Source of the DNA: Escherichia coli
Lineage (GTDB): Bacteria; Pseudomonadota; Gammaproteobacteria; Enterobacterales; Enterobacteriaceae
Direction: 5' to 3' (one strand)
Assembly: GCF_044324785.1 (NCBI RefSeq)
Contig: NZ_CP172127.1
Length of the DNA stretch: 64,000 nucleotides
A program made the position numbers. This document shows positions 20,401 to 23,400 of this stretch, piece after piece (the first letter of the stretch is position 1; every line of letters begins with the position of its first letter).

Positions 20401-23400
20401 CTTCAGATACTTCAGGTTATTAGGCGAAACGCCTTTTAATGTCAGATTAATGTCTTGCCATTGACCAGGCATTAATTGCAGAGTGGAATTCATGGTGGTG
20501 TTGAAAAGTAATTGTTGCCACTTTGCCAGAGCTTTGGCATCGGTGGGTCTTTCATTGCCCCATGTCGCATGAAAGCCAATATTTGATACGGGAACGCTTA
20601 AAAGGTTAACCAGCGAAATACGAATAACACTGCCATTTTCAACCGCATCAATAGCCAGCACCCGGCCTGCCAAACCGACCGATCCGTTATTTAAAATGAA
20701 ATATTGTGTTTGTGCTGGGTTAAATTCTGTAAAGACAAATTCGTCCTGCTTGTCTTTAACCGCTTTCACCACGCCAGCGAGCGTTTTGGTACTATTTATG
20801 ATGGTAGTTTGTTGTTTTTCAAAATGTTCTATCTTTCGCTTATCGAGTTCCTGTTGTTTCTCAAGCGCCTCAATTTTGCTTTTTTGCAACTCTTGCTGTG
20901 TAACGAGGTCGTCGACCTTACTCGCTTTTTCAATATAGTCACACCCTGCCAATAAGCAGAGAGGCACTATTATTAACACGCTTAACAGTGTTTTCTTTAG
21001 GTTCATAGGATGAATTCCTTTTCATAATCCCGATACGTTGATAATTACAGTACAATCATTTTTTTTATGAATGATTAGAGTGGGGCATATCCGCCAAATA
21101 AATTTGTTAGAGAATTTTTGTATTAATGGGTTGTGCGAATATGTTTTTAAGTGTCAAACAATTTTAGTTTGTAGCCAATAAATAAATTGATCGCGCGGAT
21201 TTTAATGATCGCTGTCAATCAATGTCAAATGTTTCACCGGATAAAGGCCCAGGGAAGGGAAAGGTAAATATTCAGTTGAGTGATGTTTTATTGCGAAGTT
21301 TGCGATGCTGATAGAAAAATTTAAATAATTAATTATGTTTCAAGCATTGATATGCGGTAATTCATTGCTGATATTGATACATCATTATTTAATTTGTACC
21401 TGCTTTTCAGAATTTAGCCTGCTCCGAGCGCTCAGAAGTGTAGGTGGAGTTGAATATATAATGTTAAGAACGTTACAAATATTCGATCTCTGAAACAGGC
21501 TCCTGCATGTGCCAGCAGGAGCGAGTAAATCGTGAGTGGCTGTAATTACAGCGACGAGAAAGGAACTTAAAACGCAGTCTTAGAGAATCCAGTCATCTCC
21601 TGCAGGCCCATTTCACGGCCCAGCGCGGTCATTGGGTGCACAACGACCAGTCCGCGAACGCTCTTCTTCAGTTTGCCCATATCAGCTTGCTCTTTTTTAG
21701 TAATCGCGCGCTGGAACGGCATCTTCATCAGCTTCTGTGCTTCCTTACTGAGTTTCTGGCTGTGAACTTCGCGCAGGCGAGCAATTTCTGCTTCCAGAGT
21801 GGCTTTCTCTTTTTCCAGTTCGGCATATTTGTCTGCGGCTTCCACCAGCGACAGATCGGCCTGCTGGTGACGGATGGCGTCCAGACGATCGCTGAGACGT
21901 TTGATTTCGTTTTTTTCGACTTCTTTCATGTGATGACTTCTGATAGAGATAAATTTATAGCCTCTAGTATGCGCGACCAGGTGCTTTGTTCACAACTGAT
22001 GACATTGCAATAGTTCTATAACGTAATCATTAACTTGCTTAAAAAGCACGCAATTTGTTGATTAATTAAGAAATTTAAAGAAAAAAGATAGTTAACAGAA
22101 GCGGATGATTATTGAGGATTGAGCACGTTTTCCTTAATGTCATTTATACCGGGATCTAAACTAAAATTGGCGGCCGCGCATTCCCGGCGCGGGGTAATAC
22201 GGAGATATCATCATGGGCAAATTAGGTGAAAACGTTCCGCTTCTTATCGATAAAGCCGTAGATTTCATGGCATCCAGCCAGGCGTTCCGGGAGTATCTGA
22301 AAAAACTACCTCCCCGTAACGCGATTCCGTCCGGAATACCTGATGAAAGCGTGCCGTTATATCTACAACGTCTGGAGTATTATCGTCGGCTTTATCGGCC
22401 GAAACAGGTAGAGGAGAAGTAAGCGAAAGTACTTACTTTTGAAAGGCTTTTTTTAAGCTGATTTTGGAAATCAGCTCTGTCAGTGAAAGGACCATTGTTG
22501 ATCGCACAGCCTGTTGGTAACGCTGAATTTGCATTGCATACAAACTGGAGTCTGCAGGTTCAAACTGTGGCGGCGGTGGTAACGCCGCCACGCAATGCAG
22601 TTCACCAAAGGGTCCAAGGATTTCGTCGTCGGTAAACGCGTACTCGTTGCCGTCGTGATTTAGCTCTTCACGCAATGCCATCAGTAGCTCCGCATCTTCG
22701 TATTCCTGGCGGTTAATGACGCCCAACCCGTAAATGAGTTTTAAACGCACAGAAAGCTCGCCCAGCGGACCGTCGCCGTCGAGTAACGGTTCTACAGCAT
22801 ACTTCACCGCGTAATCGTCTTTGCGGAATACCTGAAGCACCAGAAGATTTACCGCCTCGGTCAAAAGCTCGACGGCGGTGATCAGAAAGCTTCGCACGGT
22901 TTTGCCAGCATTCAGACGCTCAAGCACACGGTTTTCAAAGGCCTGGGTTTGTTCCATTGTTGCCTGCATATCTGACAATCTGTTATTCGGGCGCAGGGTG
23001 TCCTGCGCCTGGTCCACCATTATTGCATTGCTTTATAAGCGGTTACCGCCTCGGATACAACCTCGCTGTTGGCATCAAGACCGGAAATCTGTGCCAGCGC
23101 CGCCTGCGGACCTTTGTCAGCGATCAGTGCTGCCAGTTCCTGAGCCTGCGGATCATCTTCACTGCGGAAGTGCATTGCAGCGGCAATACCTTCAATCAGG
23201 TTTTTATGTGGCAGACCATATTCCAGCGTACCGAGCAGTGGCTTGATCAGACGGTCACCAGCGCTCAGTTTACGCAGCGGCTGACGGCCTACGCGCTCTA
23301 CATCATCTTTCAGATACGGGTTCTCAAAACGACCAAGGATTTTCTGGATGTACGCCGCATGTTTGTCCGCGTCAAAGCCGTAACGCTTGATCAGTACCGC

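What the first reader, a model, noticed from the sequence alone, without database searches (positions are those of the whole stretch)
21007..21566. 560-bp strongly AT-rich non-coding region upstream of the lipoprotein-adhesin operon
The region has no ORF in the track and is much more AT-rich than the flanks (runs such as ttttttttatgaatgattag and ttatttaatttgtacc). It likely holds the promoter and a nucleoid-protein (H-NS-type) silencing region for the adhesin operon, as is typical for horizontally acquired adhesin loci.
Basis: inference. Interest (0 to 1): 0.35.

Follow-up and report, generated by a model that had tools for sequence, protein, structure and literature searches.

The report
AT-rich promoter region, SadB–UpaG operon
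This AT-rich 560-base gap in an E. coli chromosome is the control region of an already described lipoprotein-plus-adhesin operon (sadB–upaG/ehaG): it holds the upstream gene's terminator and a near-perfect, deeply conserved promoter that published genetics says is kept off by the nucleoid protein H-NS, so it is real but largely ordinary and already known.

Summary
Window 21007-21566 is non-coding and has 35.4% GC against 51.8% for the window. All genes here are on the minus strand: yibL, then this gap, then a SadB-type lipoprotein gene, then a YadA-like trimeric autotransporter (UpaG/EhaG type), then lldP.

Comparison of 13 diverged versions (four deep E. coli alleles, E. marmotae, E. fergusonii, Pseudocitrobacter, Salmonella, one unknown enterobacterium) shows only two conserved islands:
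- A sigma-70 promoter, TTGACA-18-TAAAAT, at 21228->21199. It implies an unstructured, AT-rich leader of about 186 nt.
- An unexplained block, CAGGCTAAATTCTGAAAA, at 21421->21404. It always lies 172-184 bp upstream of the -35.

The gap also contains the yibL terminator hairpin.

The region is 93% identical to that of CFT073. Papers I could read report, citing Totsika 2012, that hns deletion derepresses upaG there. TosR overproduction induces c4423 in the same strain.

The "horizontally acquired" framing is not supported. The locus sits at the same position across genera, and K-12 has a deletion.

Rfam matches, RNA structure, small ORFs, H-NS motif enrichment and A-tract phasing were all negative.

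Verdict: already known kind and locus, low interest. The conserved upstream block is the one open lead.

The parts
21007..21566 (-). Whole yibL-sadB intergenic region (560 bp, GC 0.354). Non-coding control region of the sadB-TAA operon plus the yibL 3' flank.
21567..21929 (-). yibL (120 aa, ribosome-associated protein), the upstream neighbour. Homology with K-12 stops exactly at its stop codon.
21492..21522 (-). Probable yibL terminator. The 8-bp GC-rich stem GCUCCUGC/GCAGGAGC (21522->21499) is followed by CUGUUUC, a short U-run.
   Evidence: -20.9 kcal/mol, z = -3.1. The hairpin is conserved in E. coli alleles A-C and E. marmotae. The tool's terminator scan did not call it because the T-run is short.
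21404..21421 (-). Conserved upstream block CAGGCTAAATTCTGAAAA, with core (A/T)(A/T)TC(T/C)GAAAA. Function unknown.
   Evidence: It lies 172-184 bp upstream of the -35 in every sequence examined, including alleles that are otherwise 41-46% identical. It occurs once in the window.
21414..21425 (-). SlyA-like 12-mer GGAGCAGGCTAA that abuts and overlaps the block. It matches the SlyA consensus TTAGCAAGCTAA at 9/12; the left TTA arm is degenerate in this window.
   Evidence: 11/12 in Escherichia sp. E1V33; 10/12 in O145 and FDAARGOS_144 (CFT073 10/12, read from the sequence); 6/12 in Salmonella and EDL933. Consensus taken.
21223..21228 (-). P1 -35 hexamer TTGACA.
   Evidence: Invariant in 13 of 13 sequences.
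21199..21204 (-). P1 -10 hexamer TAAAAT, 18-nt spacer. Orthologues have TAGAAT or TAGCAT.
21191..21198 (-). GC-rich discriminator CCGCGCGA. The predicted transcription start is near 21192 (+/-2), by inference only.
   Evidence: Sequence. Conserved in Escherichia alleles A-C and Pseudocitrobacter, not in Salmonella or EDL933. The start site is not mapped.
21007..21192 (-). Predicted 5' UTR of about 186 nt, GC 0.29, unstructured.
   Evidence: Length is 174-196 nt and GC 0.27-0.35 in all lineages. Fold z = -0.42. Alifold gives -3.8 kcal/mol with a covariation term of +0.42. No Rfam match.
21053..21077 (-). Weak AU-rich palindrome or hairpin, AAUCAUU-N9-AAUGAUU, in the leader.
   Evidence: -3.6 kcal/mol, z = -1.7. 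Conserved in sequence in alleles A-C and Pseudocitrobacter. No covariation.
21004..21027 (-). Translation initiation region TTATGAAAAGGAATTCATCCTATG, with Shine-Dalgarno AGGA at 21019->21016 and the start codon at 21006->21004.
   Evidence: It is 100% identical between alleles whose intergenic regions are only 67-68% identical overall. It is not conserved in Salmonella or EDL933.
20323..21006 (-). SadB-type (DUF3251, SadB/YajI family) lipoprotein gene, 227 aa. N-terminus MNLKKTLLSVLIIVPLCLLAGC contains a lipobox.
14565..20279 (-). YadA-like trimeric autotransporter adhesin gene (UpaG/EhaG/SadA positional orthologue), 1904 aa, 43 bp downstream of sadB.

Best explanation
The 560 bp are the regulatory gap between yibL and the sadB-TAA (upaG/ehaG-type) operon of E. 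coli. Read on the minus strand, the gap contains five parts in order:
1. The yibL terminator hairpin (21522->21499).
2. A conserved upstream element of unknown function (21421->21404).
3. About 175 bp of AT-rich spacer whose sequence is free to vary.
4. A near-consensus sigma-70 promoter P1, with -35 TTGACA at 21228->21223 and -10 TAAAAT at 21204->21199.
5. An AT-rich, unstructured leader of about 186 nt that runs to the sadB start codon.

Proposed mechanism (inferred): P1 is intrinsically strong. It is embedded in AT-rich DNA on both sides, about 30% GC and continuing into sadB at 41.5% GC. H-NS would coat and bridge this DNA, occluding or trapping RNA polymerase at P1. That would keep the operon silent in culture until a counter-silencer or a change in conditions relieves it.

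**Shown here:** the anatomy, the composition, and the conservation of P1 and of the upstream block.

**Taken from the literature on orthologues:** derepression of upaG/ehaG in hns mutants, induction of c4423 by TosR, and lack of expression in culture.

**Inferred:** that H-NS binds this very DNA, that transcription starts near 21192, and that sadB and the adhesin gene are co-transcribed.
For: **Composition.** The region has GC 0.354 against 0.518 for the window and is in the lowest 2.8% of 560-bp windows.

**Promoter P1.**
- It scores 11/12 and is the only minus-strand promoter-like site in the region.
- It is one of two sites at 11/12 or better in the 64 kb on both strands.
- TTGACA-N17/18-TA[AG][AC]AT is present in all 13 sequences, 209-231 bp before the sadB ATG.
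- In 12-nt windows anchored without gaps, mean pairwise identity is 0.80 at the -35 and 0.72 at the -10, against a background of 0.35 +/- 0.11.

**Conserved architecture.** The GC (0.27-0.36) and length (174-196 nt leader, 516-560 bp gap) are kept in every lineage, although the sequence is only 41-68% identical. This fits a constraint on composition rather than on sequence.

**Literature on orthologues.**
- The window's gap is 93% identical to that of CFT073.
- PMC5012682 lists UpaG among H-NS-repressed autotransporters.
- PMC12525524 Table 2 states that 'hns deletion derepresses upaG'. Both cite Totsika 2012.
- Overproducing TosR, a PapB-family regulator predicted to bind AT-rich DNA and antagonise H-NS, raises c4423 (the sadB orthologue) by log2 5.1 in CFT073.
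- Grin 2014 reports that sadBA is not expressed in culture and that its native conditions are unknown.
- In a Salmonella fur mutant, hns rises 3.1-fold and STM3690 falls 4.2-fold.
Against: - I could not read the primary paper. I cannot say whether H-NS binding to this fragment or a transcription start was shown.
- Matches to the H-NS high-affinity 10-mer are not enriched beyond base composition (3 hits, P about 0.13), and AA/TT phasing at 10-11 bp is not significant.
- The yibL-yibT gap next door is also AT-rich (GC 0.378), so low GC alone is not unusual for intergenic DNA here.
- The transcription start is unmapped, and the conserved upstream block could be a second promoter.
- Co-transcription of sadB and the adhesin gene is only a hypothesis in the literature, based on the 43-44 bp spacing.
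- The 042 hns RNA-seq table that could have tested this directly is truncated before this locus.
Confidence: 0.75

Rival explanations
1. This is an ordinary intergenic region holding only a terminator and a promoter. On this view its AT-richness is the usual composition of E. coli non-coding DNA, and H-NS has no direct role on it. Any hns effect on UpaG would be indirect, and silence in culture would reflect a missing activator.
For: - There is no enrichment of the H-NS motif and no A-tract phasing.
- The neighbouring yibL-yibT gap has GC 0.378.
- A conserved distal element is present that could be an activator site.
- A fur mutation and Fnr both affect STM3690, which shows that other regulators act on the locus.
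Against: - A GC of 0.29-0.32 over about 360 bp around a near-consensus promoter is well below the window's other gaps, and the region is in the lowest 2.8% of windows.
- A promoter scoring 11/12 that is nevertheless silent needs a repressing mechanism.
- Second-hand reports describe hns derepression in two strains whose control regions are only 45% identical to each other. That fits composition-based silencing better than a sequence-specific indirect route.
Confidence: 0.13
2. The physiologically relevant promoter is the conserved upstream block, acting as a -10-like hexamer followed by CTGAAAA with no -35 element. This would give a leader of about 400 nt that contains P1, with P1 secondary or cryptic.
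For: - The hexamer just before CTGAAAA keeps A at position 2 and T at position 6 in all lineages: TAAATT, TAAAAT, CATAAT, GATATT, CAAATT, AAAATT.
- The block is as conserved as P1, with mean identity 0.88 against a background of 0.38.
Against: - No usable -35 lies 16-18 nt upstream in any lineage (by inspection).
- The promoter scan does not report it.
- The most conserved bases are downstream of the hexamer, which is unusual for a promoter.
- P1 is a far better match to the consensus.
Confidence: 0.1
3. The region is part of a recently horizontally acquired adhesin island that is silenced as foreign DNA.
For: - The whole segment 14508-21565 is absent from K-12 and from 1263 of 5426 E. coli genomes.
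- Alleles differ by up to 54% within the species. One allele, O145, is nearly identical in the alignment to that of a cryptic Escherichia clade (E1V33), which suggests allele exchange.
Against: - The locus has the same position and the same internal architecture in Salmonella, E. fergusonii, E. marmotae, Pseudocitrobacter and another enterobacterium.
- No copy is on a plasmid.
- No integrase, tRNA or IS element flanks it in the window.
- The adhesin gene has GC 0.529.
- Grin 2014 describes K-12 as carrying a deletion.
Confidence: 0.07
4. The gap encodes something else: a small RNA, a riboswitch or RNA thermometer in the leader, or a small protein.
For: - The leader is long (about 186 nt) and conserved in length.
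- A weak AU-rich hairpin and a 4-bp hairpin covering the Shine-Dalgarno sequence are predicted.
- The 24 nt before the ATG are identical across three alleles.
Against: - No Rfam match at E <= 1.
- Fold z-score of -0.42.
- The consensus structure is -3.8 kcal/mol with an unfavourable covariation term.
- All small ORFs are broken in close relatives.
- No terminator lies between the block and P1.
Confidence: 0.03

Closest known systems
upaG (CFT073) and ehaG (EDL933) regulatory regions, H-NS-repressed trimeric autotransporter loci (Totsika et al. 2012, AEM 78:2179; cited in PMC5012682 and PMC12525524)
   Same: - It is the same chromosomal locus, with the order yibL, gap, DUF3251 lipoprotein gene, TAA gene, lldP.
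- The window's gap is 93% identical to that of CFT073.
- The P1 hexamers and the upstream block are present in both reference strains.
   Different: - The window carries its own allele of the adhesin: 1904 aa, against 1778 aa for UpaG and 1588 aa for EhaG (4767 nt).
- The EDL933 gap is only 44-46% identical to the window's.
- I could not verify what the primary paper showed about the promoter or H-NS binding.
sadBA operon of Salmonella enterica (Grin et al. 2014, PMC3953254)
   Same: - It is a positional orthologue between the mtl and lld operons.
- A SadB lipoprotein gene is followed 43-44 bp later by the TAA gene.
- The operon is not expressed in culture.
- The architecture is shared: the block lies 179 bp upstream of TTGACA-17-TAGCAT, and the leader is 190 nt.
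   Different: - The intergenic sequence is only 41% identical to the window's.
- The yibL terminator differs.
- The SlyA-like 12-mer is not conserved there (6/12).
fimB and hlyE control regions, where SlyA counter-silences H-NS from distal sites (PMC3173223, PMC2156107)
   Same: - Each has an AT-rich, H-NS-repressed promoter region.
- Each has a distal operator roughly 170-230 bp upstream of the start site. The fimB SlyA sites lie at -194 to -167.
- The palindrome TTAGC-AG-GCTAA next to the conserved block matches the SlyA consensus at 10-11 of 12 positions in several alleles.
   Different: - In this window the 12-mer is only 9/12 and lacks the left TTA arm, which is reported to be critical.
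- It is not conserved in Salmonella or EDL933.
- SlyA binding has not been tested.
- The invariant part of the element, TTCTGAAAA, lies outside the SlyA-like 12-mer.
Classical H-NS-silenced promoters with flanking AT-rich silencer DNA, such as proU and bgl (named from my own knowledge, not checked with the tools)
   Same: A competent sigma-70 promoter is flanked upstream and downstream by AT-rich DNA, and the downstream stretch extends into the first gene.
   Different: No H-NS nucleation motif, curvature signal or binding data were found for this region. The comparison concerns how it may work, not tested membership.

Membership tests
sadBA / upaG-ehaG operon locus (SadB-type lipoprotein plus trimeric autotransporter between mtl and lld) | Position between mtlR-yibT-yibL and lldP | tested here: met
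sadBA / upaG-ehaG operon locus (SadB-type lipoprotein plus trimeric autotransporter between mtl and lld) | First gene encodes a DUF3251, SadB/YajI-family lipoprotein with a lipobox | tested here: met
   RefSeq names it so. The N-terminus MNLKKTLLSVLIIVPLCLLAGC is read from the sequence. Homologues are listed.
sadBA / upaG-ehaG operon locus (SadB-type lipoprotein plus trimeric autotransporter between mtl and lld) | Second gene encodes a YadA-like TAA about 44 bp downstream | tested here: met
   The spacer is 43 bp. The gene is annotated as 'YadA-like family protein'. Orthologues carry ESPR, YadA_head, YadA_stalk and YadA_anchor domains.
sadBA / upaG-ehaG operon locus (SadB-type lipoprotein plus trimeric autotransporter between mtl and lld) | Co-transcription of the two genes | not testable with these tools
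   Grin 2014 only hypothesises it from the gene spacing.
Sigma-70 promoter | -35 and -10 hexamers close to consensus with a 16-18 nt spacer | tested here: met
   TTGACA-18-TAAAAT scores 11/12. It is one of two such sites in 128 kb of both strands.
Sigma-70 promoter | Evolutionary conservation of the hexamers relative to their flanks | tested here: met
   Present in 13 of 13 sequences. Mean identity is 0.72-0.80 against a background of 0.35.
Sigma-70 promoter | Mapped transcription start site | not testable with these tools
   No accessible TSS data. The primary paper and the Salmonella TSS paper are not held.
H-NS-silenced (xenogeneic-silencing type) regulatory region | AT content well above the genome average over several hundred bp | tested here: met
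   GC is 0.354 for the region and 0.29-0.32 around P1, against 0.518 for the window.
H-NS-silenced (xenogeneic-silencing type) regulatory region | Derepression in an hns mutant | not testable with these tools
   Reported second-hand for CFT073 and EDL933 orthologues. The 042 RNA-seq table is cut before this locus.
H-NS-silenced (xenogeneic-silencing type) regulatory region | Direct H-NS binding (ChIP, EMSA or footprint) | not testable with these tools
   No data were reachable.
H-NS-silenced (xenogeneic-silencing type) regulatory region | High-affinity nucleation motif (TCGATAAATT-like) or phased A-tracts (curvature) | tested here: inconclusive
   There are 3 hits at two mismatches or fewer, against 1.28 expected from composition (P 0.13). 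Phasing gives P 0.12. The motif was recalled from memory.
H-NS-silenced (xenogeneic-silencing type) regulatory region | Horizontally acquired DNA | tested here: not met
   The position and architecture are conserved across genera. No plasmid copies exist. The adhesin gene has GC 0.529. This feature is typical of the class rather than strictly defining.
Intrinsic terminator (of yibL) | GC-rich hairpin directly after the gene | tested here: met
   The fold is -20.9 kcal/mol with z = -3.1. The hairpin is conserved.
Intrinsic terminator (of yibL) | U-run after the stem | tested here: inconclusive
   Only CUGUUUC follows the stem. The terminator scan did not call it.
cis-regulatory leader RNA or small RNA | Match to a known RNA family, stable structure, or covariation | tested here: not met
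   no Rfam match; z = -0.42; covariation term +0.42.
SlyA/RovA operator | TTA-N6-TAA arms with similarity to TTAGCAAGCTAA | tested here: not met
   The window has GGAGCAGGCTAA, which is GGA-N6-TAA and 9/12. E1V33 and O145 keep both arms at 11/12 and 10/12.

The most novel reading that the evidence does not exclude
The invariant upstream element (core (A/T)(A/T)TC(T/C)GAAAA, window 21421->21404) stays 172-184 bp from the -35 in lineages whose intervening DNA has diverged to near-random identity. On the most novel reading, it is the docking site of a still unidentified regulator. This could be a counter-silencer of the SlyA/MarR or a similar class, or the core of a -35-less alternative promoter. 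It would be the real on-switch of the sadB-TAA adhesin operon, whose inducing conditions have never been found. The rest of the region would then be constrained only in AT content and length, as a composition-only H-NS platform. The alleles would be as old as the Escherichia-Salmonella split and still segregating within E. coli.
Probability: 0.3. Interest if true: 0.4.

Novelty: already known. Interest (0 to 1): 0.2.

Why it matters
UpaG, EhaG and SadA are widespread adhesins of uropathogenic and enterohaemorrhagic E. coli and of Salmonella. They are silent in the laboratory, and their natural inducing signal is unknown.

Two results here give concrete targets for reporter and pull-down experiments. 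The promoter is pinned to 21228->21199, and one further element is shown to be invariant across genera at a fixed distance from it.

The population picture is a clean example of a regulatory region that is conserved in architecture and base composition but not in sequence. Of 5426 complete E. coli genomes, 77% carry the region in one of at least four alleles that are 44-93% identical, and 23% carry the K-12-type deletion.

None of this changes the basic, already published view that this is an H-NS-repressed adhesin locus.

Tried and rejected
**Tests with negative results**
- Rfam scan of 20000-23000 at E <= 1 found nothing.
- Leader RNA structure is not supported: z = -0.42, and alifold across six alleles and species gives -3.8 kcal/mol with an unfavourable covariation term.
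- Small ORFs of 20-52 aa on both strands are all interrupted by stop codons in E. coli 042 or CFT073.
- The H-NS 10-mer and A-tract phasing are not above the composition expectation.
- Dam-dependent phase variation is unlikely. Two GATC sites flank the -10 in this window (21210->21207 and 21192->21189), but they are absent from alleles B and C.

**Readings of the upstream block made by eye against consensus sequences recalled from memory**
- None fitted over the full site. I tried sigma-54, sigma-E (TCTGA as a -10, but no GGAACTT -35), sigma-32, sigma-S, Cra/FruR, IHF, Fis, Lrp, RcsB, MarA and the ArgR box.
- None of these was tested statistically, and none is claimed.

**Searches that did not extend the comparison**
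- A genome-collection scan with SadB returned only close relatives.
- The 50%-cluster search showed that more distant DUF3251 proteins are not linked to TAA genes. The comparison therefore cannot be extended beyond the Escherichia/Salmonella/Pseudocitrobacter group.

**Literature that could not be reached**
- Totsika 2012, Valle 2008 and Kroger 2012 are not held.
- The Lucchini 2006 supplements are not held.
- The 042 hns RNA-seq table is truncated before EC042_RS19xxx.
- The cap on papers was reached before the Salmonella hns RNA-seq supplement could be opened.
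Full report
**Observation**

Window 21007-21566 lies between two minus-strand ORFs: a 227-aa ORF (21006->20323) and a 120-aa ORF (21929->21567). GC is 0.354 against 0.518 for the window, and only 2.8% of 560-bp windows are as low or lower. Six small ORFs of 20-52 aa overlap the region, and all carry stop codons in relatives that are 93-98% identical, so the region is non-coding. The AT-rich zone is uneven. The stretch next to yibL has GC 0.445 and contains a GC-rich hairpin. The stretch around and below the promoter has GC 0.29-0.32. Low GC continues into the lipoprotein gene (0.415) but not into the adhesin gene (0.529).

**Identity of the locus**

The 801 bp around the region are 100% identical to E. 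coli strain N3 and 98% identical to E. coli 042. The window is not strain N3 itself, because it differs by about 300 bp in the adhesin repeat array. RefSeq annotation gives this order: lldD-lldR-lldP, a YadA-like family protein, a DUF3251 (SadB/YajI family) lipoprotein, yibL, yibT, mtlR-mtlD-mtlA. This is the upaG (CFT073) / ehaG (EDL933) / sadBA (Salmonella) locus. The lipoprotein begins MNLKKTLLSVLIIVPLCLLAGC, which contains a lipobox. The adhesin gene starts 43 bp after the lipoprotein gene ends.

**Is it an acquired island?**

- K-12 lacks window 14508-21565. Homology stops exactly at the yibL stop codon and resumes at a REP-like sequence 58 bp below the adhesin stop codon.
- The K-12-type junction is present in 1263 of 5426 complete E. 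coli genomes.
- The window-type gap (at least 90% identity) is present in 1221 genomes. Two alleles at about 69% identity account for 659. The EDL933-type allele is present in 2269. Together with the deletion these make 5412 of 5426 genomes.
- None of these copies is on a plasmid.
- The order mtlD-mtlR-yibT-yibL-[516-560 bp gap]-sadB-TAA is kept in Salmonella enterica, E. fergusonii, E. marmotae, Pseudocitrobacter vendiensis and an unidentified enterobacterium whose SadB is 61% identical.
- Grin et al. 2014 also describe K-12 as carrying a deletion.

The locus is therefore ancestral at this position, and absence reflects loss. What is unusual is the divergence between alleles. Compared with the window, mtlR is 98-99% identical in other E. 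coli and yibL is 94-95%. The gap is 93% identical in CFT073, 67% in FDAARGOS_144, 68% in O145 and 46% in EDL933. That last figure is about the same as for Salmonella, at 41%.

**What is conserved inside the gap**

I aligned 11 versions. I also stacked 10 deep lineages without gaps, anchored on the promoter. Background identity is 0.35 +/- 0.11, and only two islands rise above it.

- **Island 1 is a sigma-70 promoter.** TTGACA-N17/18-TA[AG][AC]AT is present in all 13 sequences, 209-231 bp before the sadB ATG. In the window it reads TTGACA-18-TAAAAT at 21228->21199. It scores 11/12, is the only minus-strand promoter-like site in the region, and is one of two sites at 11/12 or better on either strand of the 64 kb.
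- **The hexamers are followed by the GC-rich discriminator CCGCGCGA.** A start near 21192 is predicted, which gives a leader of about 186 nt. The leader is 174-196 nt long with GC 0.27-0.35 in every lineage.
- **Island 2 is CAGGCTAAATTCTGAAAA at 21421->21404.** Its core is (A/T)(A/T)TC(T/C)GAAAA. It lies 172-184 bp upstream of the -35 in every sequence, including the EDL933 allele and Salmonella.

A simple estimate, which treats the lineages as independent, puts the chance of that positional coincidence at about 1e-13. The lineages are homologous rather than independent, so this figure exaggerates. The point that stands is that the block survives where its flanks have been randomised.

**Other parts of the gap**

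- Directly after yibL there is a stable hairpin, GCUCCUGC-N8-GCAGGAGC, at 21522->21499. It folds at -20.9 kcal/mol with z = -3.1 and is followed by CUGUUUC. This is probably the yibL terminator, although the U-run is short and the scan did not call it.
- The leader contains a weak AU-rich palindrome at 21077->21053.
- The 24 nt that include the Shine-Dalgarno sequence and the ATG are identical among three alleles but are not conserved in Salmonella or EDL933.

**Readings tested and rejected**

- There is no Rfam match.
- The leader is no more structured than shuffled sequence.
- The leader shows no covariation.
- There is no conserved small ORF.
- The two GATC sites flanking the -10 are not conserved.

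**H-NS**

From the sequence alone, only the AT-richness speaks for H-NS. The high-affinity 10-mer, which I recalled from memory, and the 10-11 bp phasing of AA/TT are not above the composition expectation. The support comes from the literature on the same locus:

- PMC5012682 lists UpaG among the autotransporters repressed by H-NS in UPEC.
- PMC12525524 states that hns deletion derepresses upaG. Both cite Totsika et al. 2012, which I could not open. My own recollection of that abstract is that EhaG and UpaG expression were both enhanced in hns mutants. That is memory, not a tool result.
- Overproduction of TosR raised c4423, the sadB orthologue, by log2 5.1 in CFT073. TosR is a PapB-family regulator predicted to bind AT-rich DNA and oppose H-NS.
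- Grin 2014 found no SadA expression in culture and calls the native conditions unknown.
- In an anaerobic Salmonella fur mutant, hns is up 3.1-fold and STM3690 is down 4.2-fold. STM3690 is also listed as Fnr-regulated.

CFT073 and EDL933 have gaps that are only 45% identical to each other, yet both are reported as hns-derepressed. All lineages also keep low GC and similar lengths. Silencing that depends on composition is therefore the most economical reading.

**Most likely mechanism (confidence 0.75)**

P1 is a strong promoter buried in about 30% GC DNA on both sides. H-NS filaments or bridges over 20900-21450 keep it shut. Relief would come from a counter-silencer or from a change in conditions. 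The anatomy and the conservation are shown here. The hns effect is taken from the literature on orthologues. The binding site, the start site and co-transcription are inferred.

**The open item**

The upstream block is unexplained. Two readings remain.

- **A promoter without a -35.** The hexamer before CTGAAAA keeps A at position 2 and T at position 6 everywhere, which would suit such a promoter. However, no -35 exists 16-18 nt upstream.
- **A protein-binding site.** Immediately upstream, and overlapping the block, several alleles carry the palindrome TTAGC-AG-GCTAA. It matches the SlyA consensus TTAGCAAGCTAA at 11/12 in E1V33 and 10/12 in O145, FDAARGOS_144 and CFT073. A match of 10/12 or better occurred in at most 0.2% of shuffled 27-nt segments (CFT073 read).

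SlyA is a known H-NS antagonist that acts from -194 to -167 at fimB. In this window, however, the 12-mer is only 9/12 and lacks the critical left TTA arm. It is also not conserved in Salmonella or EDL933 (6/12). I therefore record it as a lead only.

**Verdict**

The finding is real and its interpretation is essentially the published view of this locus, apart from the 'horizontally acquired' part. It is already known in kind and in place. The new details are:

- the exact conserved promoter;
- the invariant distal element at a fixed distance from it;
- a complete partition of 5426 E. coli genomes into four or more hyper-divergent alleles plus the K-12-type deletion.

Interest is 0.2.

Noticed in passing
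window 14508-21565; loci L003, L004, L017, L018: The whole yibL-lldP insert, including this gap, exists in E. coli as at least four alleles. Their intergenic regions are 44-93% identical, while mtlR is 98-99% identical. Counts among 5426 complete genomes are 1221 (window/CFT073 type), 659 (two alleles at about 69%), 2269 (EDL933 type) and 1263 (K-12-type deletion). Within-species divergence equals that between E. coli and Salmonella.
   Followed up: yes
window ~16710-16746 and 17265-18900: The adhesin gene contains a tandem array with a period of about 234 bp, seen as spurious plus-strand ORFs spaced 234 bp apart. The window has about 300 bp more than strain N3 in this gene (1904 aa against 1804 aa annotated), so the window is a close relative of N3 rather than N3 itself.
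   Followed up: partly
L018:8007-8024 (E. coli O157:H7 EDL933): In EDL933 the sadB-like gene reads ATG AAC TAG, with a stop at codon 3 where the Shigella-type allele has TTG. RefSeq starts the CDS five codons later at ATT, which would shorten the lipoprotein signal peptide.
   Followed up: no
L005:7288-8129 (E. coli 24AR0376), corresponding to window ~21438: In one genome an IS1 element cuts the gap at about window 21438. Everything from there on (promoter, sadB, adhesin) is replaced by a fimbrial operon and an S6 peptidase gene.
   Followed up: partly
window ~14500-14535 (minus strand): A REP-like sequence, GCCTGATGCGCTACGCTTATCAGGCCTAC, sits just inside the right end of the segment missing in K-12. 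K-12 has 11 unrelated bases (GAACACAGTAT) at the junction.
   Followed up: partly
window 21205-21218 (minus strand): The sequence TTGAC-AGCG-ATCAT in the P1 spacer matches the FNR/CRP-type half-site pattern TTGAT-N4-ATCAA at 8/10. It is kept in most Escherichia alleles but not in Salmonella. STM3690 is listed as Fnr-regulated in Salmonella. The match was judged by eye only.
   Followed up: partly
window 28434-28993: This is the lowest-GC stretch of the whole window (0.277). It lies in the Rhs C-terminal tip and Imm57 immunity gene area, according to the strain N3 annotation.
   Followed up: no
window 29676-29705 (+): This is the only other site in the window that scores 11/12 or better against the sigma-70 consensus (ATGACA-18-TATAAT). 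It also lies in the AT-rich Rhs and immunity gene region.
   Followed up: no
window 21701-22260: The densest cluster of H-NS 10-mer-like matches in the window (6 in 560 bp) falls over the yibL-yibT area rather than over the region under study.
   Followed up: no
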